55,473 bases of DNA, filler included, from Circinaria calcarea (GCA_051942165.1; 2 parts of 2 records of this genome joined end to end with filler, not necessarily neighbours in it); one strand, 5' to 3'; shown: positions 27,271-55,473, counted from the whole stretch's first letter. Numbers and translations: made by a program. The notes: generated from the sequence alone by a model not told the origin.

Positions 27271-27343
27271 ATAGCATATTTCATACCTATATTATTTTAA
27301 TACCCGCAGCCCGTTAAAGTTAGGTGGGCCGCTTAGGCCCACC

Positions 27344-27807: not shown

Positions 27808-27905
27808 CCAGGCCGATGAGGTGACGGTCTTGATCCTTCATGAGCGCTGTCCTGAGAGTATGTCCTGTCCCCTCTCTTCCGCTTCCCTCCTCCGCCAGGG
27901 GCCAT
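27808..27905 (-). CDS. THO2: 5' end of a gene cut by the contig edge; resembles the N-terminus of THO complex subunit 2 (Tho2/Rlr1) of filamentous ascomycetes
   Basis: Translates MAPGGGGKRKRGDRTYSQDSAHEGSRPSPHRP and stays open to the gap. Recognised from memory of Pezizomycotina Tho2 N-termini (KRKRGDR...RPSPHRP); only 32 codons are visible. Confidence 0.55.
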
Positions 27906-32882: not shown

Positions 32883-34067
32883 CGCAGGTCGTGATGAGCT
32901 GGCCTATAACCAGAACTCAGGGCAAAGTTATGAGAGATATGGTAGGAGTAGCGTGCAGAGACTTTTACGGTCAGAATAAATGCAACTATATCTTAACTTA
33001 ATTTTGCCTATCCTGTCATGTTGTTGTTATTTGTGCTCTGTGATGAAATGTTTACGGTCACGTTGTGCCTGAGCATTGAAAAGGGATTCTGAATGGGTTG
33101 AAGCTGTCGATTTACTATGGGCTTATGGCCCATTGATGATGGCAATGACCCTGCAGCTTTCCCACTTGAGGCGGAGCAGTAAATGAGTGAATAAAGGCTT
33201 CAAGACACCCGCGGGAATGCTCTGCATATAGCGCGCTGATTCTCAGAGCTTCGGCATGATTCCAGCACTTTCCACTAGATTCCAACACTCTGACTCATCG
33301 CCTAGCACATCGCTACCGCTTCTCTGCGGGGACCGAGTACCCGCAACTGTGATTCGCTGGCAACCAAGTCTCTCAATGACGCGGCCACCATCATCCCTCG
33401 GTGGAAACTATACTATTACATAAACAGCTACTTACATGGTTACATATATATGATATATCTAGGTCTCAGCAATATATGACTCGAGGTTTATGTGTATTGG
33501 TCGACTATCTCGGTGATTAGGATTTACAATCTTTTAAAGGTTTGGGGCACAAGGAATTCATATTGTTTCACTGCCCCTCTACATCTCCCCTTTTTAGCGA
33601 TCTCACTTCTAATTTACATATTTCTTTTAGGACTCTTTGTTGCAGATAACGCTAATCGGCTTCTCTGTCCTAATCTTCCTACAATATTAGCAAGAAGACC
33701 TGGATTCTCGCAGCAGCGACCGAACAAGCCGTCCATCCAGAGGCGGGTATAAGAAAAGACCGATATAGTTGTTCCGATTCTCAGCGCTTCATGATCATAA
33801 AAGCCTGAGAAGGCTCAGTGTTGTCCCTTCGATACTTTGAATAGACGCATCTAAGAGCAACATAGACGGGAAACACCTTCGTGCCTTATGTTTCTAAAGC
33901 TAAAAACAAGAGTACGACTTCCTCGAAGACGGCATCGCCAGGTGACCGCAGGCCTGGGGTGATTGAGACATAATAGACCTTAAGGAGATCGATAGGTTTG
34001 AAGGTTGCCTCCTTGTTGATAGGTACGACAACCTCGTTTGCGCTTATGTATTGGTAGAAGTTAACGC

Positions 34068-34379
34068 ATGATATTGAAAACATCAATAGAAATATTAGCA
34101 ACAGCTTCCAGGCAAAAATCTCGGAGTGGGTTTGCGAAAGGGGTGTACGGTCTGCTAGTTGAAGAATATAGAATTTATAAGGAGTCAAGCGCTATTGCGA
34201 AGTCGAATATCTCCGCTGCCAAGCCAAGGGTGATGATCAGTAAGACGGCATGGAACATAATGTTAAATTATGGATGGGTACCGGGTACCGGCCTAGGACC
34301 ACATGGCAATGGCGCGTGAAGATTCATAAAAATAGTGGATCTCATCCTTAAATCACACACTCGCCTAGTTTTGGGATGA
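34068..34379 (+). pseudogene. Decayed G-patch-domain gene fragment
   Basis: KTAWNIMLNYGWVPGTGLGPHGNGA*RFIKI...RLVLG matches the G-patch pattern (hhxxxGWxxGxGLGxxxxG) with an in-frame stop. Confidence 0.55.
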
Positions 34380-35985
34380 CGGTAAGGGTCTTCCCGATAC
34401 ATGATGGTTTGACGCTGCTTGTGACAACAGGTCCATCGCCTGACCACCACGAAACCAGATCGAGGTCCCAGTCAAGGTGTGACCATGTAAGAATTGTAGA
34501 AAACGGCCTGGATAGCAAGAATTTATATAGAAGATCCTCCGAGCGCCAAGGCTACATTTGGTCCAGACTGCTTCCGCCTAACCCAACAAACATCACCGTG
34601 GCCAGGGATGAGATTATTGCCTTGAAGGTATAAGGGAATATCGAAGAGGTAAAGTTATTGCTAGAAGGCCATAGCAGCAGATACAACAAGCTGTAAGAGA
34701 TCACCATCCATGCGAAGATACGCGCTGGAGCATGTCAAGCTCTTACAGAAGACAAGAGAGGCTCAGAGAAAGAGCAAATCGAATTCAGAAGAACAAAAAC
34801 CACCACTTCAAACGCCTTCCCTGGATGTTACTTCACGCCTATGCCACAAATGCGCGGAGTGCATCCGTAACGGTGGCGCATATACCAGAATTCAAGGAGA
34901 ATAACTAACTCCGCTAATAGTCATTTACTAAGTTGTGATTGGTGTGGTAGCTGCTGCGCTTCCACCACTTGCTGGCTGTTTTGGTCCCGCCGGTTGTTCT
35001 GCTCCGGCTTCTGACGCGGCTCCTGCTGTGGATAGATATGCCGATCTTGGAAGTTCGTAAATCATTATCTACTGGAGACGCGTTGATCGCTTTTCTGAAG
35101 GCGGGATACTCAAAGAAAAACAAGGTCCGAGGGTTCTCCCCCGATTTTGTTGACATATAAGTAAGCGTTCGATCCGTCAGTATCGACCAAACACGTGCCG
35201 TAAAATTCCTAAATAGCTTTGAAAGACAGCTAAACAGCATTGGAATCATTCATATCTGAATGCACGGGGGAATCGAATATAGCAGAGTCCAAAATACGCC
35301 AGGCACATATGCCTCTAGGGTACAAAAGGCCGCTGAGAAACGGAGACTGAGACAGGTTAGCCATCCACTAGTTTGCCACGAGAGGTATTATTGGATGGGT
35401 CTAGAAAAAGTTAGAGAGAACCCCTGAAAAATAGTTAGCATGGAGTTTCTCTCAATGTCAGTTTGGGGAGTACAATGGATTTAGGTCTGATCACCATTTC
35501 TTCACAGTTTACTGCATCGAATACAAAGCAGTCGAGGGATTTGGCTCCTGCCAGGACCCCTTCTATTATGCCCATTGCATATAAGCTGCTGGTGCCTTTG
35601 GTGCCCAATGCAATATGTTGCTGGTGCCTCCATATCTGCCGCCAATTTCAATCGCATAAATGGCATCGATTTAATTGCAGATGGGAGACCGGCAAAACCC
35701 TACCGCGCGTCTAAGAAAATTTTAGGGCAGAGTAGAATACAGCAGGACGGAACTAATAGCGAAGTCGAAATAAGAGAATTCGGATATTCCAAAACTTCCC
35801 CGAATTTTTCACCAAAAACCTAATTAACGAGACTAGCCAAATATGGAGATCATTATCCCCTGGAGAAGATAACCCCTAGGGTAGACAGGCACTCTTCAGC
35901 AAGTGCACCTATACCGGCGCCATCTGCGCCTGCGGGGACTGGTCCCAAGCCGCCTCGGAAAGAGAACACTCCTGGCAGTAAGCTA

Positions 35986-36500
35986 ATGGCCAATAGAGCG
36001 TCGAACACAGGGGAGGAGCGGAGAAACATCGCCGCTGCGTTTAACGACCCTCATCACCCGATGCAAATTCTAATTACCACTCTAGCGGTTGGAGGAATAA
36101 TATCCAATCTTCAATATAGCTTTCGAGTGATTATTCGGTTTGAACCTTTTACGAACGCAGATATATTTTACCAGGGAGTCGCTCGTGTCTGGCGGATTCG
36201 CAGATATATAATCAATAAGAAAGAGGTGCTAGTGTTCATCCTGACAACTAATTATAATTACGATCAGATGATGATGATGTTGGGCCAACTTATAAAGCGC
36301 GCCAACGTCACCATTACGCCGGAAGAGATTAGAGCCTACAAGGAAGCCCACCCCGACGACGAATTTGAAGAGTGGTGACGAAGATGGTGAAGAGGCTGGT
36401 AGTACCGATACGGTCAGATCACGCATATTCCGTGGGAAGCTGGAACAGCTCTACATGGAGTCGTGGGGTCAGCGCTCTTCCCGTGCCGAATGGTCAGTAT
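35986..36500 (+). pseudogene. SNF2-family helicase C-terminal domain fragment
   Basis: EERRNIAAAFND...ILITTLAVGGIISNLQ...VIIRFEP...QGVARVWRI resembles degenerate helicase motifs V and VI. No ATPase N-lobe; frameshift near 36375. Confidence 0.6.
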
Positions 36501-37958: not shown

Positions 37959-38686
37959 ATGGCCTTCAATCCAGACGCGAAGCCATTTGATCCATCAATT
38001 CAACCGGTTGCGGAGGGAAACCTGAAGTATCTCACTTGTGTACGTCAAGCGTGTCGAGAAAAAATGACCAACCTTAACAACTGTCAGCACTTCTGGCTTC
38101 GCGGACAGTGTCGTTTCAACGAAGACGATTGTCGCTATAGTCATCAATTGACGGGAAAGACCGCTGATATGCCGATTCGTTTGGGCTATGATGGTACGGT
38201 AAAGACTTCTTTCCATTTTCTAAACGGGACGATACTAACTCGACCACAGGTCCAGCTGTGGCAGTTGCTAATGTCAAAAGTCAAAATCCCATCTATCGCC
38301 ACTGGCGCGGACAATCAGCTCTCTCGAATCCAGAGGAGCGGATTCAGAGGCAGATCGCGGAAATTCATGCGAAAGAGACAGCGAGACGCCACGATCAAGA
38401 GAAGGAGGTCCTCAAGGACAACATTATTTGTGGCCAGTCATCGGTGATTAATGCCGGACTTGAAACCCTTATAAAAACAACCGCCAAACTTAGTCAGAGT
38501 TGCGGTACAATCATGGCTATTACTGTAGACAGGAAGGACGTAGTGAAGGAGGTATTTGGGATCCTTGAGATCTTGGCAGAACAACAGAACCTAGCGGCTA
38601 TGCTTGGTGAGGCAAAGGATGAGGTGATCCAGCTTTTAGAGAGCAATAGACTATCTACTCTAGTCAGCCACGAGGAAGATGACTGA
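37959..38686 (+). CDS. PAM2-like motif + single CCCH zinc finger + helical C-terminus protein (paralog A, ~207 aa, 3 exons)
   Basis: Exons 37959-38039, 38088-38193, 38250-38686 give MAFNPDAKPFDPS...LKYLTC-HFWLRGQ-C-RFNEDD-C-RYS-HQLTGKTADMPIRLGYDGPAVAVANVKSQNPIYRHWR... Confidence 0.8.
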
Positions 38687-39198
38687 ATAGAACATTGAGC
38701 TGGAAGAACAGGCATTTTCAAATGCGAAGTGGAGTAGAAAAGGGGAAAGGAAGAAGCTTACACAGTGATGAGAAACTGTAATCGACTTTAAGACCTAACT
38801 GCCTTCAAGGTCTAATAGCTCCTGGTAGTATTTCCGGCCGGTAAAATACTCCAACATACAGACTGAGAGTCTTCTTTGGCAATGCCCGCTCCCATGACGT
38901 AAATGGACAATGGACATATAGACCCATAGTCCAAGGGAAGAACCTATATTCGAGCCCATGTAACGCGTAGCGAGGATGCTGCACCAAATCTCCTTGGAAG
39001 GCCGTAGACCCTAATAGAAAAGGGGTGATCGTGGACGCCTTACGCTACGCCCTATCGCCAACGTCGCCAACGCGGTCACCTGCGTCCACTGTTGTTATTT
39101 CGGATCGCAAACCTCTGGAAAATTCTTTACCTTCTCAATCTCAAAACTCTACCTTTCACCCACCAGACATAGCTCCTTGTCATCTAATCTGGGTGCGT

Positions 39199-40429
39199 AT
39201 GAATCCAATGGCGTACCCCTATGTACCACCAGGGAGTCAGGGTGGACGAAACCCGCGCCTCCAATTCAACCATCCTCTAAGGCCCAAAGCTCCATTTTCA
39301 AATGCGAGCCAACAAGCTTCCACTCCACAGGGTTCGAATCAGCAAGGTCCAGCTATGCAAGGTTCAATTCCGCAGGCATATGGTCATCAGTCACAGAATC
39401 AGCAGCCTCAGGCTCATCAACAACATAGTCATCAACCCCAGGTCCGCCAGCCGCAAGGTCTCCAACCCCATGGCTCAGCTGGATTCGTGCCCGATCCGCT
39501 TCGTCAAAGTCCATATGGCCAGGGTGTAACAGCATCGAACCCGGCTTCTGTTAAGCACATAACCTGCTAGTAAGTACAGTACATCCCAGTCCCAATGTTC
39601 CTGGTTGACGATAGGTTAGTTATTGGGCACATGACGGCTGCATCTATAGCGAAGACCGTTGCCTCTATTCGCACAGGTATGAACTGTTCACTCTGCCCTA
39701 TCATTTAGCTGACACCCCCTAAAGGCACACCGGAAACCAGGCAGAGGCGCCTGTTAGACTGAATCCTCACGGTAACTGAGTATGCTACCTGTAAGCATAT
39801 ATCGCTAACGCAGTAAAGGCCCAGCATTAGCCGGTAGGAACCTTCGCACGCAGCATCCGTTCTACCAGAATTGGCGTGTCAACCAGAATAATCTTTCGGC
39901 CCAAATCAAGACAGCTGTACAGAATCAGATTGATAATATTATCGCGGGTTCGTCAACTCAAAGCAACACGCAGAAAGACGTCAAAGAAACGCCACAGCAG
40001 ATGATGGAAAAGATGACGATCACCGAGCCAAAGGAGAAGAAAAAGAGGCCTGCGGTTGCAACTCATCAGAACCCAGTCAACCCTACATTCGAGGATGCCA
40101 GGGATGGCCTCATCAAAGGCCAGTTCGCATGGATCAGGGCGAGTCACGCGATGAGCTCGCCGGTGGCCAACAGCATTAGATACAATTGTGACCAGCTCCT
40201 CATCCTAAAAGACAAGATGCTTCACGGTGAAGGCACCACTGCCGACGAGACAAAGTTTGAGGAACACATCAACATGCTGATGAAGGCGGCACAAAATGCA
40301 GAGAACGCAACGACAATGCTTGCGGAAGCAAAGATGGAGGCGGATGCAGAACTTCGCCAGCAGGGCCTAGAGCATTTGATCGAGTACGACCCAACTGAGG
40401 AGTTGATTGAGCCTGTGACTGAGCATTAG
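39199..40429 (+). CDS. PAM2-like motif + Q/P-rich region + single CCCH zinc finger protein (paralog B, ~361 aa, 4 exons)
   Basis: Exons 39199-39569, 39620-39676, 39725-39771, 39819-40429 give MNPMAYPYVP...SVKHITC-YYWAHDG-C-IYSEDR-C-LYS-HRHTGNQAEAPVRLNPHGPALAGRNLRTQHPFYQNWR... Confidence 0.82.
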
Positions 40430-43400
40430 TCTGAGCCTTGATCCACTCTATCTTTCTACTCATCAAAAGGGTCAGACATGACAGGTACGCCTTTTCTGCT
40501 CTCTTTACTGGCTCTGACTGCGATACAAACTTAATAATCACAAAATGGCGCTGTCGAGGCAGATGGAGGTAACGAGCTGAGGTCCATTTCCCTTTCGGGA
40601 ATCGGTAAAACTATCCATCCATGCCAAGCTTTCTGGTCTTGTCTGGAAATAGCAAATTTACATGTTCGTGCTATTCAGTGGCTTCTATGATCATGATGGT
40701 GATGGACTATGCTATACACATATGCGACTGTATAAAGTAACAAGTCCCTTGTCGAGAGCTTTTCCGTCCTCTCTCCCTCCACGCCCTGCACCGTCTTGGT
40801 ATTCCACGCATCGCCAAGTACTCCATTCCCTATATTTCTCGACGTCTTCCTCAAGCGTTACCAGACACATATCCCCATCCTAAGAACTGTATCGGACTGA
40901 GAGCTATAGCGATAGCACTGCCAACCGCTATTACACTTATCGATACCCACAAACTCCAAGTCGTATACCTCGAGTCTTACCAAAACCTGCCTTTATCGAC
41001 AAGCTCCGTACTGGCTTTCGGCTCAACTCTCGCTAGTTTGATCTGCAGGTAGATACCAATGCTACGAAACATCGGGCGTATAAGAGCTGTCATCAATAAC
41101 CCTATGCTGAAAGCCTAGAAAGATTATCCGCGTCGATCATGATGCTTAGTTTGGAAACGATTGATGATTGCCCTGTGGTGCCTTCGAGATAGCGGCTGTG
41201 CGGTTCCTCGAAGTAGGATCCGGTACACATGTTTATGTTGATCAGCCTCCTCACTATCTCATCGCTCAAGGCGTTTCAGTACTCTTAATTGCTATACTGA
41301 GGTCTGCTGTAACCTTAAGCTCCTGGTAGCGTATAGCCCATCAATCAACCAACTCAGTGCTATTCCTAGGAACTTTGAGGGTCACCATCCGTGGCGAGAC
41401 ATCGAATTGTGCCAGATTTTCCTGCCTGAGGTTTAGTCAACTGCATCGAAAAGTGGACCTGGACGGTCTCCTATACCGTGGAGATGCCCGAGAAAGGGTT
41501 TGACTGTAAAGAAGGTAAATCGTTATCCATCATACCGGTCAGAGACTTTGGAGGGCCGGAGGAGTTGGTTTCGCATAGCGACAGCAAGATAGCCTCGTTC
41601 CGCGAGGCTATTCCTCCTCAACTGCAGGTGCTCTTGCCCAATATCCCAAGACAAAAGTCGTCTTTCTTCCGGATGCAGCTAATAGTTTATCATCCAATGT
41701 CCTAAATGTTTCAGACTAATTGCGCTTACTCCATACCCCCTCTCCTGCTAGAGCATGCCTGGTTCGAGGACGCGTTATGGCGGGAATTTCCTCATTAAGT
41801 AAGTGAAGTCATAACAGTCGAACGTTAACATATCTAGTCACCTCATGTCTACCTGATGGACACACAATATAATTGTCAAGCGTATTTGCACCAGCAAGGA
41901 GGACTACAAGTGGATAAATTCAACTTTCACCGTCTTGACTTCTTTAGTGCAGTCACAGCTAAGAGCTTCTACGGCCACCCTCTGGTGTATGGGGAAGCTC
42001 ATCTTGACAGCGCCAAGTGTGTTAGAAAATACATCGCGAACAGGCAGATATCTTGGACAAAAACATGTGTGTGTCTCTATTTGCATTGACCCTAGCTATC
42101 CTGCCGATGGTTCCGTAGTACGTTGCCAGCCCGGGATACCCTGCTTGGTAGGGAATGCATAGGAGCTGTCAACCACATCCGTCTCTGAGACATAATGTCC
42201 TCTCCATACCTATGTACTGAGCCTATCAGTCGCGTCTCTCGTCAATGCTTTCCAGGTCGCACAAACATCCTTGCATGGAGATATGGATAAACGACAAACT
42301 AACATCCATACATCTGTACTGAAAATCTAGCTTCTTCGACTGAGTGGCTCATCATGAATATTCCGGAATGCCGAAAGTGACTCTGACCATAGGGGCTGCG
42401 AATATGCTCATATAGTTTATCGAATAAGTCTTTAACCATCCTTCTATCCTATATTATTAGGTTAACAGCTCATATCTGCAACAACCCTATAAAGTATGCC
42501 TAAGACAGTCGACTCCTAATTTGTGACATAGCTGTTTCTGCGGCTCCTAGCGTTAGAAACATAAAAACATCTCGCCGGGACTCCATCCAGTGTTTCGCCC
42601 GCTTAGTGTTTTGAGGCATCTTCTATTACTTGCGGCACTAGAATTTGGTACTGATGCCTAGAATTCGACGTTGGTGACTCGGGGGCCATTTCCCCTTATT
42701 CGATTATCTAAGGTGAGCCTCAAAAAGCATCTGGTCTTGGATAATCCCAGGCTTGTATGTCCTACCGCCAGAAAAGGTCGATCGTTGATCCTCTGGCCAC
42801 TACAGCTTTCGTGCACGATATTAGGATTTATAACCCTGTAAGAGCGTTCTCAATGCCTGAGGACGGACTTATACTCTGGCCAGTGAGTCTGCCAGTCATC
42901 GCTTTGGATCTATCAAACATCAGATAAGGAGGCCGTATGTTGGGCTCCATCGGGTGCCTTTATTCGCCATACCTGTGACCATCTAAGACTCCTGGCGGTT
43001 TATATGGGCCCTTCTAATCTGTCTATGTAAGGTGTGTAACTGAGCGGTGCCTCCAAAAAACATTCAGAGGAATGGAATAGTAATATGAGTCTGTGTGATG
43101 TGTTAGGTCGGCGGTAGCTCCTACACTAATCCGCCTCCATTGTCTCCATACATTGACTTTGTATCTCTGTTTTCATGTGGTTGTGTACCCGATCGGCCAC
43201 AATCGTACACTCAAGAAGAACCTTTCCTTGTCGATATCTGCGTGGATTATTGTTGAAGCATGGCCATCGATCAGCCGCCAGCTGCCTTGATCGTACCTCA
43301 TTGTACTCGCTCATTGCTGCGTATTGGCTTTATTGGAGTGCTTTTGTCTTTGCTAGCTTTAGCTATCATTCCTTCAACTCCTGTCGTTTGCCGTCATTTG

Positions 43401-46400
43401 GGATTCGTTCTGCGAGATAATGAACACAGCGGAGCCCTTTACAGTTCCCTGAGCTCTTCAGTGGCTCTAGCTTTGATACCACCCTCTCGTTAGGCCATCT
43501 CACTCAGCCTCTAACATGTCCAGAAAGCTTCTGAAGCGGGTGCGATTTCAGGTCTCGAATTGTGCAGACTTTGGTCTGGTGATATGAAGACAGGCTGAAG
43601 CATCGATCCGAGGACAGGAAAGTGTCCCCAATATTCGTGCATAATCTCTCAAAACTTGTTCCGATTCTGTTTCGTAGGTTTAACCCCTCTATTGACTGTA
43701 CGGTGGTGGAAGCTGGCATGCCTCATTTGTAACAGTTTAGCGGCGACTGTCTAGTACTCTGACGCAAAACCTGCATTTTCTGACTGATACAAGTTACAGT
43801 GGCTCGCAGTGTGTGGTCGAGAGGCAAGCATATTGGCGAGATGACGGGTGCAATGCCGCATACAAGTTCAATACGACGTTTCCTAAGAGGCGAATGAGTC
43901 TCTCGAAAGACACGGCGGTTTTATGAACTTGATCATCCCTACTCTAGGGTTTGGCAGTCAGTAAATGTATCCCTGGGTAGAATGAGGTTGCATACTTGTT
44001 GGTCGAGCGTGTGGTTCTCGGGTCATGCTGACACGTTTGGTACATTTGGCACACCACTAGTAAACCTAGGTGGATTGGCAAAAAACACTGTGGAGGATTG
44101 CCTATGGGCAACTCAACCTCTCTCAGCTTGAATCGTTGCGGTGACCAAGCCGGCGGTTTCTCTGACTACGATGTTCTAGAGCAGGTCCTTGTACGTTTCC
44201 TACCTTTGTAGGATAGGAAGCACGGTTCAGTGCTTCTTTGGCTGCTACTTTGTAAGCTTAGGAGATGATGGCCCACAGATTCAATGCTGCGGGTGGCAGC
44301 TCTGCTGAAGGGTAGCTTCGAGAGCTCTGTATCCTTTGGCTACTCAGGCGGCCTGGCAGAGCCTTCCCGGGCTTAAGCTTAAGATGTGATGCAGTGTCCA
44401 CCAACGTGAAAACTCAGGCCTGACCATGGTGGACAGGCAAAAAGCTTTCGAAGGTGAATGCTAACGCAGCTAACAATGAGCCGGAGAACGACATCATAGA
44501 ACGGGGGCCCTGGCAAGTCCGTACTATGACCCACAACGGCCAAACCATCCCAAATTCACCACTCCCCAACCCGTATTCCTTGACGCAAGTGCATCATCCT
44601 CTTATTCTTAAGGCCTTGGAAAAGGTAGCCTCTCCTCCATATTCTTAACCCACTTGAGAACTCGAGAGACAGACTTCATCTGTATTTGTTGCAGGGCTTG
44701 GCATCGCAATACGCAATACGCAGCCTCTTTCTTCTCTTTACCCGCAGATACTCAGTCTCTGTTTCCTTATCTCATAGAAGCAAGCTGACGCAGAAGCCTT
44801 TCTTGAGCATCGACACGTTACTCCTCCGACACCTCTTCCACTTCTGCAGTCAGGGAGAGAATCATCTGAGATAAGATAATGATCAAGAGCTATCCTCATC
44901 GATGTCATCCAAAGGACCAGTGAACCTCAGCGGCCACTTCACTGCTTCTTCTAACGTCCACTCTATCTTTCCTTCTTCCAACCCGGCTTTGTGTTCTCCT
45001 TATGGGTGAAGTCGCTCTCGAGCATACATGAAGCTCTGCCTGGCACAAGCAAGTTCAGGGACATATATAGTTGGGAGAACAGCAACTGTTGGATGGGAAT
45101 AATGCGAGCTTGATGCAGTAAGTCAACTTAATAAGGAGTCTGATTGTAGACTAACTATGCACAAGACCCCTCCACGAGCTCAAACGTTTCGAAAGCCCGA
45201 CATGAATCATGGCCAATCCACGGAAAGGTACAACAGTATAACAAAGCATGAAATGAGAGACGTTGGCCTTTAATTTTAGAATACCCTCATATATATGGCA
45301 AGGAAGAACAACAAGTGTATAGCTTGTGGTCGAGGGGTGGTAAGAAGTAAGGTACACCTAATCAGATTTGTCAACCTAATAAGCTTATAGGTCACACCAC
45401 AGTTGTCTAATTTCCATACGCCATGGACATGTGAGATGGAGAAAGAGTAAAGTGTACGGCTACTATAAGGTAGCCGCCAAATACTGGCCCAAACCAGAGC
45501 TGGCTGTCGCCCCCTTCTAGAGGTAAGTTGTGGTTCGTATCTGTGTTTCTCTTCGCATTGCTTGTTTATACCCCTGTTGTATACCTAGTCGTCGATGATT
45601 GCATCACATAGGCTGTTAGGTCTTTATAACAGTATATGATATCTATGATGTCAATGATATCCCTTTGGCTAATCCCCTGACATTGATAGGTCACCAAGCT
45701 AATAGGGCTTCTGACTCTGTTGAGAGACACGGAGGTTGTTATCAAACGATCTATGCTGACTTCTGTTGGAAAGATGACCTGACAAAGACCCGTAACGCCA
45801 TTTATGTCCCCCCCTTATTGGAAGTATCCTTATAGACGCGGCTTCGCAGACGGTACCTTCCTATCCTTGAGAAGGAGGATTAAAGAATGGAACAATCGAT
45901 CATTGACCCGTCACCACTGCTTCGATGTAAAATTCCAGAAATACAAGAGTCGAGCACAAAATGTTGAACAAGGCTATCCATCCCTAGGGATCCAACGCTA
46001 TAGTATTTGCTTAAGGTCCCGACCATTACAAGTCTTTGCCGAGACTAGTTTGAAATACCATAGGTACTGAGTTCATAAGCTCTCTTCATAGACCTTGACA
46101 GCCTCCGTGATTTACTATTCTCATATATATGAGTTGATGTTACGCTCATCCCGTTAAGAATGAGTTTGAGATAACCGTCAAGGATATTTATATCTCATGT
46201 TTCCTTCTCTTATCATTTCTTCTTTTCTGATTTTTTTTTCATATATACCTTGAAGAGTGAAGGCAATGCGAATATAAGCTCTGACATCCCGCGTTGGTCC
46301 CGTGAGGCAGGCGGCTTCTCGGAGCAGATGCACGATGTTCTGGTCCCGCGGGATATAAATGAAGACGGGGAGCTCTGCACAGCTCGTAGCAGGCCACAAT

Positions 46401-49149
46401 ATACGCTGACCTCAGCAAGGTTGCATATTCGGCCATGATATGCCAGTTGGAACGCCCTGGCGAAAAAGGGGTTTCCCACATCCCGTGGTGATCCGGGGAA
46501 GCTGGCCAAGTCTATAATGTGCTGGCCCTAAGAAGTATATATGAGAACTGGGGGCCAAGCACAGTTCGTATGAGACGGTGTTTTTGGCCGTGGTACAAAC
46601 CAGCGATTTACTGGGCACATCTTCCCTGTGCCGTCGTTTGCACGGAGCTGTGGCACGTTCCAGGAGCCCCTGGTTTCTCCCAGCTGCGTCGAATGCCTAA
46701 GGGGACTTCACACAGGTTAGTTATACTCTTAAGAGTTGATGTTAATATACTGATATAGGTATTAGTCTACCTTTGATGCCGTCATCGCTGCCAACATACC
46801 CGGTGGTAAGCTTGATTACAGGCCTATTTCGCTGATAATTTTTGACGGGAAAATATATTGTACCTACTGGGTACGAAATGGAGAATGTGATTTTATTCAG
46901 TAAAAGTATATACTCCGGTATAAGATGTCGGATGTCGATATACTGACGAAAATAGGATTTCGCCACATCCCTCGCTGGTTCCGGGAAGCTGGTGACTTTT
47001 CGGACCAAGTCCATTACCTCGGAACGTTGCCAGGAAGCTCAAAGCTGTACACAGTGCAGGGCGGTCGATCTTTCAAGTGAGGAAGATGACGGTGGTGGGG
47101 CTTCTGTATGCCTGCTTTGTACCAGTAGGTACTCAGGCTCCTCGTATGCCCCATCGTCAACAGGGCACACCTGTACGATCTTATAAGCCATTGACGCCCG
47201 CGCCTGCGCCTACCGCTCACCCGGTCCTTAAGCCTGTCGCACAACTTCAACGTCAACTCCAGACACAGTTAACCAAGGCCGGTGAGCTCTTTGATGGTGC
47301 TCGTGTCACTTTTTCGGTTCATCATAAGCGGATGTTCCAACGTCCTGCTTAATTCCCAAAGCTGGACATTCCAATTTTCCATCCCAAGGCGCAGGACAAA
47401 GGTAATGCTGAAGACTTGTGAGGTGACGATCTCCTCCCAACCGATATAGAAGTCCACGGCATAGGATTCCTTGACCGACGTCTAACTTAAAGACGGATGA
47501 TGTCCGAGGACACCACCACAGAACATGGTACCAAATCCAAACTCAGCAGTTGGCTTCCCGAATCGCTTCAAACCTGGCACCGGATCTCAGAAATCTGTAT
47601 CGCAGACACAGACACTGTCTCTCTTAAATGCCTATCTATTAGCCTTCATCCCGAACGACCGTACCCCGGGAGGTTCTACTGCCTCTATTATCCGAATACT
47701 AGGCGATGATAATGTCCGCGTTTGAGCCTGCAGATGCTCAAGCAAAGAGTTCCACGGACCAACGATGCAAGCATGAAAGAAAACTTCATATCTTCGCTGA
47801 TATGGTCGTTAGCCTTCCTTAAGTGGGCTATATACTTATGGTAGGGATGAGTAATTGTATAAGAGATTAATAAAAGAGAAAAAGCATACCTTACAAGGCT
47901 GTACAAGAATAGGATGAGCAAAGATAAGTATATGGAGTCAAGAACTATCAAGTGCTGCTAATATATGAAAAGCTTCATGGGTTAGTCATAGCAAGGCTGT
48001 GTTTAACCGGCGATATATTGCGCGAGGAAACCTATCAAGTCTTTGAACTGATATACCTTGTGAGTTTGCTCTGGGTTAACCTTCAGTCATTAGTGTTACG
48101 GTAACTGGTTAAGGTTTAAAGGTACAAGGGACGATACGTACCATGAGACATAGTGGGGAGAGGGTACTTTTATGCCATGAAGTATATATGAGAAGAGGAC
48201 CCTGGACAGTGCACGTTAGTGAAAACATTTTATAATTTGAATCCTCGACAGCTGCTCTCTTTGTACTGTGGTGATGTGGATGGAAGACGTTGATGGGATA
48301 AGGTTAGAAGATCAAGGGAAGGGAAGAGAATATACTGACCTCTGTTGCAGGATGACTGACCTGGGATTCACGCAACTCCGTTCTCTGGAAATGGGTGAAT
48401 ACCTCTCGATATCTGGTATGGTCTGGACAATGACGTCGAATCGATGCTCAAGCTCTTCTGGTATCCCCTCTCCTCCGACCTTCATTCCGTTCTAGCGCCT
48501 AAGATACCAGTCCGTCTTTGCTAGGGAATGTTAGGAGCTTGTTCGGGAAGATATGATCCGTACAGCTACCTGACTAGGGATCTAGGCACTGGAGTAGCTT
48601 CCTTCTTCCGCTGGTTAATAGCAGGAGCCCAAGATTGATGTTAACACAGAGATAAAGTAGTAAGCTGCTGTACAATGCAATGAAGTGGGACAGGTTCATC
48701 TCACCTGCTACAACTTGAATACCACGAACAAGGTCCCGCGAGCAAAAAAGCTGTAGAAATAGCCAGGTACCAGGGTATTTTTGCTTGCATGCTTGATGAT
48801 AGGATTGCAATCTCGACCTTTCGTGGTATCAAAGCTTATAAAAAAGTTAGGTTGACGGGCTATAGGGAGTCTTTGAAGAACGAAGAGCCGAGAGTATAGC
48901 AAGCATCTTAGGATAAGGCTGCTTTGAACACTTTTCCAGCATCGCTTCTAGGTGGGTGCACAATCTCCTCGTGACTCCGTTAGGGCTACATGAACACCCT
49001 TCACATTTTTCTTCACGAGAAACGGCAAATCTTCGATCACCAGATTATCACAATCCCATTTGCAAACCTCCTCAAAGAAACTGAAATCTTCTCCTAAACA
49101 TTGTACATATTTAAGCCCAGGCTTCTAACGATTCCTAGAATATAGCAGT

Positions 49150-50100
49150 ATGACCCCCATCCTTCCCCGGCGAGACTCCGTCAAGCACATTACGTGCTTC
49201 TACTGGAATCGAGGCAACTGCCGATACAGTGAGACGGACTGCCTCTACGCTCATCACAGGAACACGGATACAGTGGCAGAGTCGCCTGTACGCGTGGAAC
49301 AAGGTCGTAAGTTACCACTAGCATCAGCTCCTTGGCTTTAGTTTCTACGTCCTTGAGCAGATTAAAAAAGCTCTAATTCCTCTACTTCCTAATATCTAAT
49401 CTTTTCAGAGCCTGCAGTAGCTGGCAGAAACGCACGCAGATCGCAGCCAGAGTACGTCCCTTGGCGAAGTCTACCTGCTCCAGCTACACCGAAACCATCA
49501 ACACAGCGTGCTGTAGCCTCCTCGCGCTCTCCTCAACACCAGCCACCTCAGTTGCCTTCTCAGCCTCCGCCCCAGCACCCACCACGTCAGCAGCAGTTGC
49601 TCAACCAAGTGACTTCTTCCCAGCTACAGCCTCCCCACCTGCAACTGAATTCTCGGCAACAGCTACTCCCTGAGCAACCGTTCCATCAGCAGCTTCCTCA
49701 CCAGCTGCCAAACCTGCCGCGTCGAGTTCACGAATTACGTTCAGGGGACTCCCCACAACCTGTGCGCAGTCCCACTCGACCTAGCAACGTTTCTCCTGCA
49801 GCTAGGGAAAGCCGAAGTCCAGCTACTGTGCCGCCATCTTCGGATACGATGGCCGTCGAAATACGTGCTTTCCGAGAACTACGAGCGATCATCGAGCGGA
49901 CCATCCAGCAACTGGTCACGATGGCCAATGATCTCCTGGCGCACATCCGGCGATTACAGTTGCAGGTCGGACTATTTGGCGCGGTACCGGCCGGCATGCC
50001 TGCATTAGCGCTCGTGGTGGATATCAACAACCTGGTCAGAGCGTACCGAACACTCACTGACCAAATGGATGCAATCCTGAAGAGGTTGCCAGAGGGGTAG
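49150..50100 (+). CDS. Single CCCH zinc finger + Q/P-rich region + helical C-terminus protein (paralog C, ~282 aa, 2 exons)
   Basis: Exons 49150-49306 and 49409-50100 give ...SVKHITC-FYWNRGN-C-RYSETD-C-LYA-HHRNTDTVAESPVRVEQGQPAVAGRNARRSQPEYVPWR... Confidence 0.82.
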
Positions 50101-51578
50101 CGGCAGATGTGGAAGGTTTCCAATCTACTTGCGTATCTGCGGGTTATAGTCCATTGGTCTGGTTCTGGACACGTTCTTCTTCAATTACTGTGGTGCATTC
50201 GTCAGGGAGTTTAATAGGGGTCAGGAATTCGGACATAATCCTACACAGCATTATGGGATTTGCAAGGCTTGCGTGAAAGGATAGGAAGGAGATATCTCAG
50301 AGTTTCTCTTGATGCTCGCGCTAGTGTTTGGAAGGTTAGCGGGTACATAGGTTTATACAGGTAGCAATATCAAGCCACCCACCAATAGCAAAACCAACTG
50401 CTTTGCATGAGCAATTTTGATTGCTACATCCGATTAATACTCTGCAGGCAGTGATGAGACCTTGAACTTGTAGTCACACGATTGCCAGACTCACCTCATT
50501 TGCTACGAGACGAACGGAAGTCGCTCCATGAAGGTAGCCAGGGGCACTGCACGGGACACAAAAAGCATTCCGGGCTTGCCCCAGTTCAAAATAAGCAATC
50601 GACATATCATAATTCAAAGCAACTAGCTATACCATACCATAGTGTGCATATAACAACCCATCCCCCCCCCTACCTTCGTGTCTCATGACGCAGATACAAC
50701 AGATTCTACACCCAAAGCCTGCCAGAAGCCCTGTATCCACATCTACCACCTCACACCATTCCCTCCAAGACCCTAGAGGCCCTTTGGATAGTTTGGATAT
50801 TAAGCCTTGTCTTGCTGCGGCTAGAAATAAACGCAGTCTTCGCGGTGTTCATGGTAGTAGGGTAGATGAATTCGCATCTTGTATTCACAGAGCGGACTGT
50901 CATTTCGACAACATACATAGGATGATGACAGATTTTGTACTGCAAAGTATTAGCCAAGGCAGTCCGCATTCTGCTAGCACTGCTCTAGTACGAATTATGG
51001 ATGACATATCGTAAGATAACTCAGCAGGTATCTCCTCAGTTTGAGATGAGAGAAGCAAAGCGATACTGAGATGTAGGAGAAGAATTGAGAATGCAGTCGT
51101 GTTTCCTGACGTCGCGTGAAGCGCTTATTACTTAATTCAGCGCCTCCCCAAGGCACACCGAGTCCAAGGATTAACCAATCCTTCGTTGGGCTGGTGTGTA
51201 TAATACCGGCAGAGGGTCACTGACTGTATGCGTGTTGGATGGATGCTATTCCATGTCGACGTCTTGTCAGGTCTAGAAGAGAGAAGATAATTGCTCAGAG
51301 CAGAACCATCATTCCCTATGTGGATGTCCCCAACGTAAGATGATAGTGTATGACTATCGATTACTAGACCAAGACCGTATCCGGTTGGTCTCCATATTCC
51401 GAACTCTTCAGGTAATGCCATGCTTTATCTCCAGCAACTTATAATGTCTCATTCTGTCGGTCATGTTCTACTGGCTGTCGATTTTGACATCTTGAAACCG
51501 CATTTACGGATTTCGGAGACAATGCAAGCTTGAGACAGTATCCAGGAAGGTGCCGTGAGAGTTGTGACTTGGTCAATC

Positions 51579-51651
51579 CTGCGTATCCTGGTCATCGAAG
51601 TTTGCACATTTTAATCATCGAAGTCTGCGTATCCTGGTCATCGAATTCTGC
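51579..51651. repeat. 23-bp tandem repeat x3 (CTGCGTATCCTGGTCATCGAAGT)
   Basis: Units at 51579, 51602 (diverged) and 51625. Confidence 0.8.
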
Positions 51652-51957
51652 CATACAGGATAAAAGCCCCTAGTACTTTCCCGTATATATGATGAGTGTT
51701 GAACCGCGCCAAGACCAGCGGCTAGCCATTGGATGTGAAGGGTGGTTGTGATTTCACTTGGAAAGTGTTGGAGAGCTATTATACAACACCTTAGATGTGA
51801 TACGCTTCACTGATGATCTTCATCCACCCTTATTTTTTGTTTGGCTTCTTTGGTTCGATATTTTTTCTACACTCCATACTCTTCTTGCTTCCCACCCACT
51901 TATTCGTACTCCACCTAGTAGAAAAACTTGATCAAGTCGTTCACATCGACCGCTCCT

Positions 51958-52337
51958 ATGGATCACCCGAATCAACATCACGAAGATCTGGCTAGAGAAA
52001 GCTGGACCCCCGTGGTTGTCGTGAACAACACCTCCTCGAGAAGGGTTCAGCAGTCTCAGGCTACCACACATCGTTCGTACTTTCGTAATTCTGTGTATTC
52101 AACTAATGGTTTACATAAATAATAGTTCAGCCGTTGTTAAATGCTCGACCCTCCTCCTCATCGATTAATGTCCAGCCGATACTAACAACGGGGCCCCGAA
52201 CTCGAAGGGAGGTCGTAATCCACAATGACTGGAGCTTTGAGCGTGGTCGGCTTCCATGCAGGGCGATTGACTATGTCTTGGCTCAAGGAGTACCTCCACC
52301 AGTAGCTCAATTGTTACGCTCTGTGGGTTTAACCTAG
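51958..52337 (+). CDS. Small two-exon hypothetical protein, or the 5' part of a frameshifted pseudogene
   Basis: MDHPNQHHEDLARESW...TH|(gttcgt...actaat...ag)|LQPLLNARP...SVGLT*. Coding-like sequence continues in another frame. Confidence 0.35.
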
Positions 52338-54960
52338 ACCCAGACAAAAAGAGACTAGCTAAAGAGGTTGGCAGATTCGAGCAAGCGAGGACAGACTACG
52401 AGACCATGTCGTTGTCCTACAAGGTATCCAAGCTATCTCGTCAACCGCCATTAGCAGAATTCGTCGAGAAATATCGGGTTACGTTGCGCAAGTAACTGCG
52501 CCTCGAGCCGCACAGGGCAACGCAGATACGACAGATACGATAATTTCCCTCGTTGATCTCTGCATGGCTTTGGAGGAGATCATAAGAGGGCATGAGGTGC
52601 AAATAGCAGACATAAATGAGCAGCTGCGAAGTCTGAGAGCTTCGTAACGACAGTAGTTGGAAATGATGGCTATAAGTCTCGAGATTAGTACATAGCATTC
52701 CAGACAGAACCAATTGATAATTGACAAGAGATCTCGAACACATGCGAATGCCTTGAGTTCTAGTAAAGTTTTGCATTCTCACTAAAGTACAGATTTGTCC
52801 ATCGTCAATACATTCAATATCAATAAAAAGGACAAGGGACAATGAGACATGGTGCGTTTACTTTAATGACTCTTGTGAAGTTCTAGTGACAGTAGTCCCC
52901 CAGACAATCTGGAGTAGAGGACTTTCGCTCGACTGCTTACTATGTATGCTATTCTTGGATGAATACCTCGCGCGCAACATGCATAGAGGCATACTCAATC
53001 GGTCAGTGAACTGTCAACAGCTCACTGATACTCCACCAAGGGCGTTTGCACCTACTGCGTTTGACACCTAGCCTGCTGGCTGAACAGGCTGCAGTGGATA
53101 CAATCAAGGTAGCTGATAGGGGTATTCTCGGGAGGATGAACATGATCTGAACAAGCTGTACGTTGAAGCTTCCTTGTCTCGAATTCAGAGTCGAACCACG
53201 TGGCTTTTATACCAGACTGCACTCGTTAAGCGATCCACAGGATGAAGGTCCAGATCATCTCAATAGCATTTGACTAGTCAAACTAGTCAACGAGAACACA
53301 TGCTTACCTGAGGCCACATCAATCACAGTGGAGAGGAATTTTGCGCCAGATAGCAAAGTGCCAGCTGTCACGTAGTGAGCATTGAGTGTAGTGGCGGCTA
53401 GCCGTCTGAACAACTTTCGTGACTGCTTGGACCAAACTTGCGAATCGCGTTCCCTAAATAGCAATAGCTGGCCATGTTTGAAAGTTCGTTATCAAAGTTG
53501 TTTGTAGCTCTTGGTGCTAAATTCGCTTGGCAATCGCTGTATTCTAAGCGCGCTAGGCGCTTCCACCGGCTAGCGCAAGACAACGACAAATTTCGGGGAG
53601 CACAATGTTTTCTCATAAGTTGTATCTAATGCTTTAAAACTATCGCCTTATTGACAAGCCTTTTCTGATCACCTCTTACTAGGTCTGGAGAATGCCGCTT
53701 TTCCTTGCAGGGTTTCAAAGAACCGAGTTTGCATGAATAGAGACAGATAAACACCAAATTTCCCTAGATCTCCTGCTTTACTTTACATGTTCTGCTCCCA
53801 ATTTCTCTTCTTGCTATATTAAGCTTCCATATATATGAGCTACCATCCTAAGTATCCGGTGGTCAAGTGTGTCTTTAAGCAGTTTCTCAATATTTCGATT
53901 TCATCTTATAAAGTCTCCATCCGCTTGAGCCGGACCTCAGGAACAACTTCGTTAGCCTGAGTGTGGAATGGAGATTCTGAATCGAATAAGTCTCTAGTAA
54001 TTGCTCCTTTTTTCATTTTCGTATACTTCCTGCAAGATGTTCATGATTAACTGATATTTTTTGTCCTCTCTTCCACCGCGAATCTTAGTTTTATTGGCAA
54101 TCTCTTCGTGCGGATATTCTCAACTCTCTCTCGTCAAAACGTGGCATATTGCAGATTAGAGTTGATATGCTTATTAAGATCAAGACATGTCTGCAGAAAA
54201 GAATAGCGAAGGTTGGCTATACCGACATTTAGCATATTCCATTCAGGTAAGCTAGGAGATGGAAAGCTCGGTTGAAACCCATTAACTTGAATGGTAAAGG
54301 TATTCGACAGAAATTAAGTGATCTTGGGAAAGGCTGAGGAGTAGTATAGCGCACTGTGGTACGCTTCAACGATATGGCGGAAACTCATATAAGTTAAGGA
54401 CGTGGGGGGACCAAGTCCTTGCGTGAGGTACCTTTTTGAGAGAAAATAAAATCGAACTAGCACATCAAGAAGCACATTCGAATGTGTAGCATAAAGGTTT
54501 GGTTTGTTGGTCTAATTCCTTGCAACTTCCTGCCAATATGGGTGGGTGCTTTTAGTTAACAGTATAGCAAGGTGCTGGGATAGATGTGGCTCTGGAAGGT
54601 TGTAGGTACGGCAAGGTGTTCATGCTCTGATGTTAGTCATCGTAGATGGCGGGCACGACCAGCTAGTCCTTACCTGGCGGGCTAAATACATAAGAAAAGG
54701 GTAAAACCACGAATCTAGCGTGCTGCGTCTCTTCTTTTCAGTACGCGCCTGTTTCTCTCTTCTCCATTCTTTCTTCATCAAATACTCCTCAACGCCTTTT
54801 CTCTATCCTCCACTCCATATTCTGTCTATCTTTCTTCATCGAAATTCGAACCTGCTTTCATTTTTAATTAGAAGCTAGCCAGGACATCAATCCCTCTACC
54901 CTTCGCACCAGATACTAACTACATACCTCACACCATCCATCGAGCATTTATCTTGCAGCT

Positions 54961-55438: not shown

Positions 55439-55473
55439 GTAAGTAAAATGGATTTTGCTGCTCTTCATTCGGT

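What the first reader, a model, noticed from the sequence alone, without database searches (positions are those of the whole stretch)
37959..50100. Clustered three-member family of intron-split single-CCCH proteins sharing an extended ~65-aa domain
Seen: three same-strand genes that only appear after splicing share (V/L)K(H/Y)(I/L)TC-x7-C-x6-C-x3-H followed by T..A(E/D).P(V/I)R....PA(V/L)A..N.....P.Y..WR. All have a phase-1 intron just before the PA(V/L)A motif, and their flanking regions are unrelated. They are intact while surrounding ORFs are full of stops, which suggests selection. Known: CCCH fingers bind RNA, but C-x7-C-x6-C-x3-H spacing is less common than C-x7/8-C-x5-C-x3-H. Inference: an uncharacterised, locally expanded post-transcriptional regulatory or RNA-defence module.
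Basis: partly seen in the sequence, partly recalled or inferred. Interest (0 to 1): 0.75.

Follow-up and report, generated by a model that had tools for sequence, protein, structure and literature searches.

The report
Three clustered fungal single-CCCH finger genes
Three neighbouring intron-containing fungal genes encode members of a widespread but unstudied family of one-zinc-finger proteins that probably bind RNA as pairs, which is of moderate interest, not a new kind of system.

Summary
Three + strand genes splice into clean reading frames: A 37959-38686 (207 aa), B 39199-40429 (361 aa) and C 49150-50100 (282 aa). Each has one C-x7-C-x6-C-x3-H finger, a conserved tail and a phase-1 intron in the codon before PA(V/L)A.

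They are not a private invention of this genome. A profile of the window's exon pieces found 257 proteins. An HMM built only from 64 outside members finds exactly these three loci in the window. Named relatives are all "hypothetical" or "C3H1-type domain-containing" proteins of Eurotiomycetes, lichen-forming Lecanoromycetes and Dothideomycetes. No Pfam family covers the tail or the C-terminus.

The flanks are not unrelated. All three end in a helical hairpin, and the model of A's hairpin as a symmetric dimer passes its controls. A and B start with a PAM2-like peptide.

Best reading: dimeric single-finger RNA-binding regulators, A and B possibly docking on poly(A)-binding protein. Nothing supports an RNA-defence role. 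Whether the trio arose by local expansion, and whether relatives cluster, could not be tested.

The parts
37959..38686 (+). Gene A, 207 aa. Exons 37959-38039, 38088-38193, 38250-38686.
   Evidence: Sequence. Spliced frame has one terminal stop. Intron signals. Outside HMM scores 47 bits, E 2e-13.
37965..37994 (+). PAM2-like N-terminal peptide of A (FNPDAKPFDP).
   Evidence: Pfam PF07145 PAM2 scores 13.9 bits, E 0.045, below the cut-off of 20. It is one of only 3 matches to a loose PAM2 pattern in the six-frame window. The consensus LNxxAxEFxP comes from passages of PMC7356810.
38040..38087 (+). A intron 1: 48 nt, phase 0, directly after the first Cys codon.
   Evidence: GTACGT..CAG with TTAAC 10 nt from the 3' splice site. 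Removing it restores C-x7-C.
38194..38249 (+). A intron 2: 56 nt, phase 1. This is the family-conserved position.
   Evidence: GTACGG..CAG with branch CTAAC.
38252..38308 (+). Second half of the domain in A: PAVA..N..P.Y..WR.
38393..38638 (+). C-terminal helical hairpin of A, the predicted homodimer interface (residues 48-129 of the exon-3 piece).
   Evidence: score 0.48, best control 0.06. Aligns with the hairpin of P0186.
39199..40429 (+). Gene B, 361 aa. Exons 39199-39569, 39620-39676, 39725-39771, 39819-40429.
   Evidence: Outside HMM scores exon 2 at 26 bits (8e-7) and exon 3 at 13 bits (0.0098).
39199..39228 (+). PAM2-like N-terminal peptide of B (MNPMAYPYVP).
   Evidence: Pattern match. 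No Pfam hit.
39570..39619 (+). B intron 1: 50 nt, phase 2, two bases after the first Cys codon.
   Evidence: GTAAGT..TAG with branch TTGAC.
39677..39724 (+). B intron 2: 48 nt, phase 2, just after the finger's His.
   Evidence: GTATGA..AAG with branch CTGAC.
39772..39818 (+). B intron 3: 47 nt, phase 1. This is the family-conserved position.
   Evidence: GTAACT..AAG with branch CTAAC.
39821..39877 (+). Second half of the domain in B: PALA..N..P.Y..WR.
49150..50100 (+). Gene C, 282 aa. Exons 49150-49306, 49409-50100.
   Evidence: Outside HMM scores 81 bits, E 5e-24.
49180..49254 (+). Lead-in VKHITC plus the C-x7-C-x6-C-x3-H finger of C, uninterrupted.
   Evidence: The muscleblind finger is the best PDB match, with the same spacing.
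49307..49408 (+). C intron: 102 nt, phase 1. This is the family-conserved position.
   Evidence: GTAAGT..CAG with CTAAT 9-32 nt from the 3' splice site.
49411..49467 (+). Second half of the domain in C: PAVA..N..P.Y..WR.
49840..50085 (+). C-terminal helical hairpin of C (helices at residues 144-189 and 197-225 of the exon-2 piece).
   Evidence: AlphaFold2 model with pLDDT 75-90 in these blocks.

Best explanation
These are three real, spliced genes of one uncharacterised protein family of filamentous ascomycetes. The family's build is as follows:
- a disordered N-terminus, Q/P-rich in B;
- one CCCH zinc finger with muscleblind-type spacing, preceded by a conserved lead-in (SVKHLTC in the family);
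- a conserved tail (xxTGxxA..P....G, then the phase-1 intron, then PAVAG(R/K)N-x5-P-x-Y-x2-WR);
- a linker, Q/P-rich in C;
- a C-terminal antiparallel helical hairpin.

Most likely mechanism: the finger binds a short single-stranded RNA element. The hairpin pairs two chains, so the dimer presents two fingers, which tandem-finger proteins carry on one chain. In A and B the N-terminal PAM2-like peptide docks on the MLLE domain of poly(A)-binding protein, so these two would link bound mRNAs to the poly(A) machinery and affect stability or translation.

Shown here: gene structure, family membership, family-wide conservation of domain and intron position, the predicted hairpin, and a dimer model that passes its controls. 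Inferred: RNA binding, Pab1 docking and any regulatory role.
For: Gene models are clean.

Family evidence:
- The profile of the window's exon pieces found 257 proteins at E<=1e-3 and 17 at E<=1e-10.
- Of the 203 proteins fetched, 79 are single-finger members with the lead-in: 24 with x7 spacing and 55 with x8.
- An HMM from 64 outside members picks out exactly the three loci.
- Annotated spliced members from Lobaria, Pseudocyphellaria, Mycoblastus and Pleopsidium carry the whole domain, including PAVAG..P.Y..WR.

Intron position: of the 79 members, 21 read across it, 11 carry a 15-20 aa in-frame insert exactly there, 44 stop within 75 residues after the His without the second half, and 3 fit none of these classes.

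The nearest solved fingers bind RNA. Muscleblind-type fingers score E 9.5e-4 to 0.03, ahead of Yth1, RBM22 and CPSF30. With the profile, RBM22 scores E 1e-3 and MBNL2 E 1e-2. CX7CX6CX3H is the pattern of MBNL fingers 1 and 3 (passage of PMC11837677).

Hairpin: P0186 has helices 153-228 and 235-273 at pLDDT 76-95. Gene C has helices 144-189 and 197-225 at pLDDT 75-90. The A and B C-terminal exons align with these.

Dimer of A's exon-3 piece: score 0.48, best of 3 controls 0.06. The mark was reached by 21 of 30 proteins solved as pairs of one chain and by 0 of 23 solved as single chains. Runs agree in at least 88% of contacts, and partner pLDDT is at least 70. The symmetric interface covers residues 48-129.

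PAM2-like peptide: Pfam PAM2 is the only family reported for A's first exon (13.9 bits). A loose PAM2 pattern matches 3 places in the whole six-frame window, and 2 of them are the start codons of A and B. P0030 and P0011, the nearest rows to A and B in the tree, begin with LNxxAxxFxP at residue 3.
Against: No CCCH Pfam model reaches its gathering cut-off on the window pieces. The best are zf-CCCH_PARP12 at 25.5 bits (cut-off 27) and Torus at 17.3 (cut-off 29).

The tail (PAVAG..WR) is modelled at pLDDT 48-59, so its role is unknown.

PAM2 is below threshold. Only 4 of the 203 fetched proteins match the loose pattern, against a shuffle mean of 1.2 and a maximum of 5. C has no such peptide.

The dimer pass is the model's own confidence. 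On eukaryotes the mark was reached by 17 of 29 solved pairs, but by only 1 of the 7 with no older solved relative. Long helical hairpins may pair from general likeness.

Multi-finger relatives of about 1200 aa carry an N-terminal Chromo domain (4 of 5 scanned), which points to chromatin.

No expression, splicing or RNA-binding data were available.
Confidence: 0.55

Rival explanations
1. Chromatin or transcription factors. The finger reads DNA or nascent RNA at chromatin, and the hairpin recruits partners. The proteins act in the nucleus on transcription, not on mRNA fate.
For: The same finger type, with the xxTGxxA tail, follows 161 of 323 fingers in multi-finger relatives. Of 5 multi-finger relatives scanned, 4 start with a Chromo domain. 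One fungal CCCH protein, FoDbp40, is reported to act at a promoter (passages of PMC9742485), but it belongs to a different, highly conserved family.
Against: The single-finger proteins have no Chromo or other chromatin domain. The PAVAG..WR half is absent from all 7 multi-finger proteins checked. The nearest solved fingers bind RNA. The PAM2-like peptide points to poly(A)-binding protein.
Confidence: 0.2
2. One reading: the clustered paralogs recognise foreign or transposon RNA, in the manner of ZAP or PARP12-type CCCH proteins.
For: Gene A's read-through piece gives a sub-threshold match to zf-CCCH_PARP12 (25.5 bits, cut-off 27). ZAP appears far down the PDB list (E 1.6, 0.17). Three diverged paralogs sit in a gene-poor stretch.
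Against: The genes contain no effector domain. No transposon relic was detected nearby: no Pfam hit in 93 flanking ORFs apart from a G-patch, no repeats and no RIP signature. The family is conserved across classes of fungi, and each named relative comes from a different strain or species. That is not the pattern expected of an arms-race family.
Confidence: 0.07
3. Protein-binding adaptors. The finger and the conserved linear tail bind a protein partner instead of nucleic acid, and the hairpin is a scaffold.
For: The tail is conserved yet modelled as unstructured (pLDDT 48-59), which is typical of a short linear motif. The hairpin has no informative structural match: 0 of 500 PDB matches at E<=0.001.
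Against: The aromatic positions next to the zinc ligands are conserved, such as W after the first Cys and LY before the His. From recalled knowledge of the TIS11d and MBNL structures, these positions stack on bases in RNA-binding CCCH fingers.
Confidence: 0.12
4. Not functional genes: chance ORFs or decaying pseudogenes.
For: No expression data. No close orthologue of any of the three was found; the best outside identity in the domain is 43-51%.
Against: All three spliced frames are intact and all six introns have canonical signals. Of 23 strongly conserved family columns, A keeps 16, B keeps 20 and C keeps 21. HMM E-values go down to 5e-24.
Confidence: 0.03

Closest known systems
Muscleblind (MBNL) zinc fingers 1 and 3
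   Same: Identical ligand spacing, CX7CX6CX3H (passage of PMC11837677). Best PDB sequence matches to gene C's finger: 2e5s_A at E 9.5e-4 and MBNL1 at E 0.01. MBNL fingers bind RNA.
   Different: MBNL has four fingers in two tandem pairs on one chain. These proteins have one finger, a different conserved tail and a C-terminal helical hairpin, and no similarity outside the roughly 26-residue finger.
Uncharacterised fungal 'C3H1-type domain-containing' hypothetical proteins, e.g. P0186 (Lobaria immixta), P0194 (Mycoblastus sanguinarius), P0143 (Emergomyces pasteurianus)
   Same: Same lead-in, finger, tail, phase-1 intron position and C-terminal hairpin. This is the family the three genes belong to.
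   Different: No close orthologue was found (43-51% identity in the domain). The window's genes all have x7 spacing, the minority type (24 of 79). A and B have an extra intron at the first Cys and a PAM2-like start.
Fungal multi-finger CCCH proteins, some with an N-terminal Chromo domain, e.g. P0117 (Clohesyomyces aquaticus), P0024, P0034
   Same: Same finger type, with the xxTGxxA tail after 161 of 323 fingers.
   Different: They have 3-8 fingers and 600-1300 aa. A Chromo domain is present in 4 of 5 scanned. None of the 7 checked has the PAVAG..WR half. They were not examined for a hairpin.
PAM2-bearing partners of poly(A)-binding protein (consensus LNxxAxEFxP, PMC7356810)
   Same: A and B begin with [F/M]NPxAxP[F/Y]xP. 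Relatives P0011 and P0030 begin with LNPxAxxFxP.
   Different: The Pfam PAM2 score is below cut-off (13.9 against 20). A has F and B has M at the Leu position, and B has Y at the Phe position. Binding is untested.
TTP/TIS11 tandem CCCH proteins
   Same: A conserved basic and hydrophobic lead-in directly before the first Cys, and aromatic residues beside the ligands. This comparison is recalled and comes from no call.
   Different: TTP has two fingers with C-x8-C-x5-C-x3-H spacing and no hairpin. No significant sequence match was seen.

Membership tests
Uncharacterised Pezizomycotina single-CCCH family (no Pfam entry) | Lead-in, finger and first tail segment, scored with an HMM built from 64 outside members | tested here: met
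   C 81 bits (E 5e-24), A 47 bits (2e-13), B exon 2 26 bits plus exon 3 13 bits. No other locus in the window passes inclusion.
Uncharacterised Pezizomycotina single-CCCH family (no Pfam entry) | Second half of the domain: PAVAG(R/K)N-x5-P-x-Y-x2-WR | tested here: met
   Present in all three and in the family members aligned in A4.
Uncharacterised Pezizomycotina single-CCCH family (no Pfam entry) | Phase-1 intron in the codon before the PAVAG proline | tested here: met
   Found in all three genes. The outside evidence is indirect: 11 of 79 members carry an in-frame insert there and 44 of 79 end there. No fungal genomic DNA was available to check directly.
Uncharacterised Pezizomycotina single-CCCH family (no Pfam entry) | C-terminal antiparallel helical hairpin | tested here: met
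   P0186 model, gene C model, A and B by alignment, and A's dimer model.
Pfam zf-CCCH (PF00642) and related CCCH models | Score at or above the curated gathering cut-off | tested here: not met
   No window piece reaches a cut-off. The best are zf-CCCH_PARP12 at 25.5 (cut-off 27) and Torus at 17.3 (cut-off 29). Relatives are also below threshold. The C3H ligand pattern itself is present.
Muscleblind family | CX7CX6CX3H spacing | tested here: met
Muscleblind family | Two tandem finger pairs on one chain | tested here: not met
   Each spliced protein matched the finger pattern, and the window holds only three finger loci. These proteins work like an MBNL finger at most and are not members of the family.
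PAM2 motif proteins (PF07145) | Pfam gathering score of 20 bits; core LNxxAxx[F/W]xP | tested here: inconclusive
   A scores 13.9 bits, E 0.045. A has F in place of L. B has M in place of L and Y in place of F. Relatives P0011 and P0030 fit the core exactly.
PAM2 motif proteins (PF07145) | Binding to the MLLE domain of poly(A)-binding protein | not testable with these tools
This needs a bench assay.
ZAP/PARP12-type antiviral CCCH proteins | Tandem CCCH array plus PARP-like or other effector domain | tested here: not met
   Single finger and no effector domain. zf-CCCH_PARP12 is below its cut-off.

The most novel reading that the evidence does not exclude
The family is an undescribed class of fungal mRNA adaptors. 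A single muscleblind-type finger with its own conserved tail is made bivalent by a C-terminal hairpin dimer. In the A/B subgroup it is tethered to poly(A)-binding protein through an N-terminal PAM2 peptide. The three linked paralogs, possibly forming mixed dimers, would then give combinatorial control of mRNA stability or translation in lichen-related and other filamentous ascomycetes.
Probability: 0.2. Interest if true: 0.6.

Novelty: new variant of a known kind. Interest (0 to 1): 0.4.

Why it matters
CCCH proteins are little studied in filamentous fungi. This family is spread over several classes of Pezizomycotina, including human-pathogenic Onygenales and many lichen fungi. It is labelled only 'hypothetical' and is not captured by Pfam.

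A defined domain boundary, a conserved intron that breaks many automatic gene calls (55 of 79 fetched members are truncated or read through at it), a predicted dimerisation module and a candidate Pab1-docking peptide together give a concrete, testable model. They also give a way to repair the annotations. Beyond that, this is a family description, not a new principle.

Tried and rejected
- Word-indexed search with gene C exon 1 (longer proteins): 2 candidates, none significant. The exhaustive profile search later found the family, so that blank was a sensitivity limit.
- Cluster look-up for names of ten hits: not answered, because the database was off. Names came instead.
- ESM Atlas: gene C exon 1 gave only generic CCCH clusters (best 0.88). 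P0186 gave 0.77 for unnamed 'C3H1-type' Ascomycota clusters. These are leads only.
- Fold search of the P0186 model against PDB: 0 of 500 matches at E<=0.001, only generic helical hairpins.
- A fourth copy: the marginal half-finger at 46856-46894 (10 bits, E 0.06-0.08) runs into a stop with no usable donor site and was judged chance.
- DNA-level duplication: no repeats of 40 nt or more in 33000-55473, and a blastn self-comparison shows nothing between the three genes.
- Transposon or RIP context: no Pfam hit in 93 flanking ORFs except a G-patch and sub-threshold noise. RIP indices are normal.
- Phylogeny to date the duplications: 82 rows but only 45 columns, and just 2 starred branches. The free tree separates A, B and C, but the constrained tree is not worse (p-AU 0.68 for A+B+C, 0.84 for A+B). 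It gives no answer.
- FoDbp40 (PMC9742485, passages) belongs to a different, highly conserved CCCH family and was set aside.
- Literature: searches found no description of this family. The locus-tag search returned 0 papers. Supplements were not consulted.
- Not done: clustering of family members in related genomes and dN/dS among orthologues. The only genome collection on hand holds bacteria and archaea, so its scan was not used.


Full report
**What is there**

The window is fungal. Its first 26 kb hold a highly reducing polyketide synthase cluster with P450s, a BBE-type oxidase and hydrolases. An AAA/ankyrin gene lies at about 31-33 kb. In the flagged stretch, three + strand genes appear once introns are removed.
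- Gene A has exons 37959-38039, 38088-38193 and 38250-38686, and encodes 207 aa.
- Gene B has exons 39199-39569, 39620-39676, 39725-39771 and 39819-40429, and encodes 361 aa.
- Gene C has exons 49150-49306 and 49409-50100, and encodes 282 aa.

Each spliced frame has only its terminal stop. All six introns are GT..AG, 47-102 nt long, with a CTRAY-like branch site 9-16 nt from the 3' splice site. A and B are 512 bp apart, and C lies 8720 bp further on.

**The observation**

In all three genes a phase-1 intron splits the codon directly before the proline of PA(V/L)A. In A the x7 spacing appears only after a 48-nt in-frame intron right after the first Cys is removed. B has an intron two bases further on and a third one after the finger's His. 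The reported ends, 37959 and 50100, are A's ATG and C's stop.

**It is a family, not a local oddity**

A profile of the window's own exon pieces (alignment A1) was searched against 1.84 billion representative proteins. It returned 257 proteins at E<=1e-3 and 17 at E<=1e-10. Two further searches brought the total fetched to 203 proteins.
- 79 of the 203 are single-finger proteins with the same lead-in: 24 with C-x7-C and 55 with C-x8-C.
- 115 are multi-finger proteins.
- 8 have a single finger without the lead-in pattern.
- 1 has no finger.

An HMM built only from 64 outside single-finger members was run back over all 2663 six-frame pieces of the window. It finds C (81 bits, E 5e-24), A (47 bits, 2e-13), B exon 2 (26 bits, 8e-7) and B exon 3 (13 bits, 0.0098), and nothing else above inclusion. 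A marginal half-finger at 46856-46894 runs into a stop and looks like chance.

Annotated, correctly spliced members from Lobaria immixta, Pseudocyphellaria aurata, Mycoblastus sanguinarius and Pleopsidium flavum carry the full domain, including PAVAG(K/R)N..P.Y..WR. All names given by sources are 'hypothetical protein', 'predicted protein' or 'C3H1-type domain-containing protein'. The taxa are:
- Onygenales: Blastomyces, Histoplasma, Emergomyces, Emmonsiellopsis, Helicocarpus;
- Arachnomyces, Endocarpon, Pyrenula and Cyphellophora;
- many Lecanoromycetes;
- Dothideomycetes: Aureobasidium, Ascochyta, Clohesyomyces.

No Pfam family reaches its cut-off on eight single-finger members or on the 21 rows of alignment A4.

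**The intron is conserved**

Of the 79 single-finger proteins, 21 read straight across the position. Another 11 carry a 15-20 aa in-frame insert exactly there, and 44 end within 75 residues after the His without the second half. The remaining 3 fit none of these classes. This is what unspliced ORF calls over a conserved intron would look like. It is indirect evidence, because no fungal genomic DNA was available.

**The flanks are related**

The C-terminal exons of A and B align over their whole length (E 1e-5). Both also align weakly with P0186, P0190 and P0194. Family alignment A4 shows two further shared features. One is a helix after WR, (D)PEIQEQI..I.AK in the family; A and B have recognisable versions. 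The other is a conserved C-terminal end, K..I..L...GL..L.P.W.

AlphaFold2 on P0186 with A4 gives the following:
- a disordered N-terminus;
- a finger at pLDDT 72-80;
- a poorly defined tail at 48-59;
- two long helices, 153-228 and 235-273, at pLDDT 76-95.

Gene C's exon 2 gives a disordered Q/P-rich linker and helices 144-189 and 197-225 at pLDDT 75-90. The fold search found nothing specific: 0 matches at E<=0.001.

A two-copy model of A's exon-3 piece supports a symmetric dimer through the hairpin.
- The score is 0.48 and the best of 3 controls is 0.06.
- The mark was reached by 21 of 30 proteins solved as pairs of one chain and by 0 of 23 solved as single chains.
- Runs agree in at least 88% of contacts, and partner pLDDT is at least 70.
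- The interface covers residues 48-129.
- On eukaryotes the calibration is weaker: 17 of 29 reached the mark, but only 1 of the 7 with no older solved relative.

**The N-termini**

A begins MAFNPDAKPFDP and B begins MNPMAYPYVP. Relatives P0030 and P0011, the nearest rows to A and B in the tree, begin with LNPxAxxFxP at residue 3. The PAM2 consensus is LNxxAxEFxP (passages of PMC7356810). Pfam PAM2 is the only family reported for A's first exon, but below cut-off (13.9 bits against 20, E 0.045).

A loose PAM2 pattern matches three places in the whole six-frame window, and two of them are the starts of A and B. Among the 203 fetched proteins it matches 4, against a shuffle mean of 1.2 and a maximum of 5. 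It therefore marks a subgroup, not the whole family. C lacks it.

**What the finger resembles**

CX7CX6CX3H is the spacing of muscleblind fingers 1 and 3 (passage of PMC11837677). Muscleblind-type fingers are the best PDB matches to gene C's finger (E 9.5e-4 to 0.03), followed by Yth1, RBM22 and CPSF30. The family profile puts RBM22 (E 1e-3) and MBNL2 (1e-2) first. These are all RNA-binding fingers, and the similarity is confined to the finger.

The first piece of the 'extension' (xxTGxxA) follows 243 of 410 fingers of this spacing in the fetched set, including 161 of 323 in multi-finger proteins. It is therefore a general trait of this fungal finger class. The PAVAG..WR half was absent from all 7 multi-finger proteins checked. 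Of 5 multi-finger relatives scanned, 4 start with a Chromo domain.

**Age of the trio**

Within the domain, A-B share 28 of 71 positions, A-C share 28 of 71 and B-C share 35 of 70. Each has an equal or better outside match, at 43-51%. There is no DNA similarity between them. The 45-column tree places A with P0030, B with P0011 and C elsewhere, with weak support. Forcing A+B+C together is not rejected, and that tree even scored better than the quick free search (p-AU 0.68). Local expansion is neither shown nor excluded.

**Surroundings**

The 8.7-kb gap between B and C and the 5 kb after C have no ORF over 175 aa. Among 93 flanking ORFs the only family at its Pfam cut-off is a G-patch at 34065-34316, upstream of A. 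There are no repeats and no RIP signature. Gene poverty around the trio is real, but it does not by itself argue for selection. The family-wide conservation does.

**Verdict**

These are real genes and true members of a widespread, unnamed single-CCCH family with a distinctive tail, a conserved intron and a dimer-forming hairpin.

The best mechanistic reading is a dimeric RNA-binding regulator, with possible Pab1 docking in A and B (confidence 0.55). A chromatin role (0.2), a protein-adaptor role (0.12) and RNA defence (0.07) are the rivals.

It counts as a new variant of a known kind and is of moderate interest. Still unchecked are splicing and expression, clustering in related genomes, dN/dS, and any binding.

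Noticed in passing
window 1-26000: Secondary-metabolite cluster. It contains a highly reducing PKS (8344-14220 and 7535-8368, - strand; KS-AT-DH-ER-KR-ACP), P450 pieces at 2584-3174 (-), 5221-6667 (+) and 24353-25843 (+), a BBE/FAD oxidase at 21346-22644 (-), and alpha/beta hydrolases at 499-1410 and 15806-16879 (+).
   Followed up: partly
window 30815-32879 (+): ORFs with AAA (AAA_5/AAA_2), a weak ankyrin repeat and a ClpB D2-small domain. This is probably one intron-split gene.
   Followed up: no
window 34065-34316 and 35824-36375 (+): A G-patch motif above the Pfam cut-off (24.9 bits against 22) and, 1.5 kb downstream, a degenerate Helicase_C-like ORF (14.3 bits, E 0.049). These may be exons or relics of RNA-processing genes just upstream of gene A.
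   Followed up: partly
window 26600-27810: Diverged tandem DNA repeats (72-76% identity, units offset by about 90-360 bp) next to two 44-base runs of N at 27708-27751 and 27764-27807. This is probably an assembly gap in a repeat.
   Followed up: no
window 46286-46333 and 46967-47014 (+): Two ORFs share a 16-residue peptide, IPRW(S/F)REAG(G/D)FS(E/D)Q(M/V)H, with 12 of 16 identical (E 6e-8 for the pair). There is no DNA-level repeat and no Pfam hit. Unexplained.
   Followed up: partly
window 40430-49149 and 50101-55473: Gene-poor stretches on either side of gene C. No ORF exceeds 175 aa, no Pfam family reaches its cut-off, and there are no repeats or RIP signature.
   Followed up: partly
proteins P0024, P0034, P0058, P0013, P0117 (database hits, not in the window): Fungal proteins of about 1100-1200 aa with an N-terminal Chromo domain and 2-5 fingers of the same class, each often followed by xxTGxxAxPPG. 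P0117 is named a Chromo domain-containing protein by one source; the other four were not looked up.
   Followed up: partly
proteins P0168-P0182 (database hits, lichen fungi): Teloschistales and related lichen fungi encode 600-840 aa proteins; the five checked (P0168-P0171, P0177) each have five fingers of this class and no PAVAG motif. They were the strongest scorers with profile A3 because of the repeated fingers.
   Followed up: no
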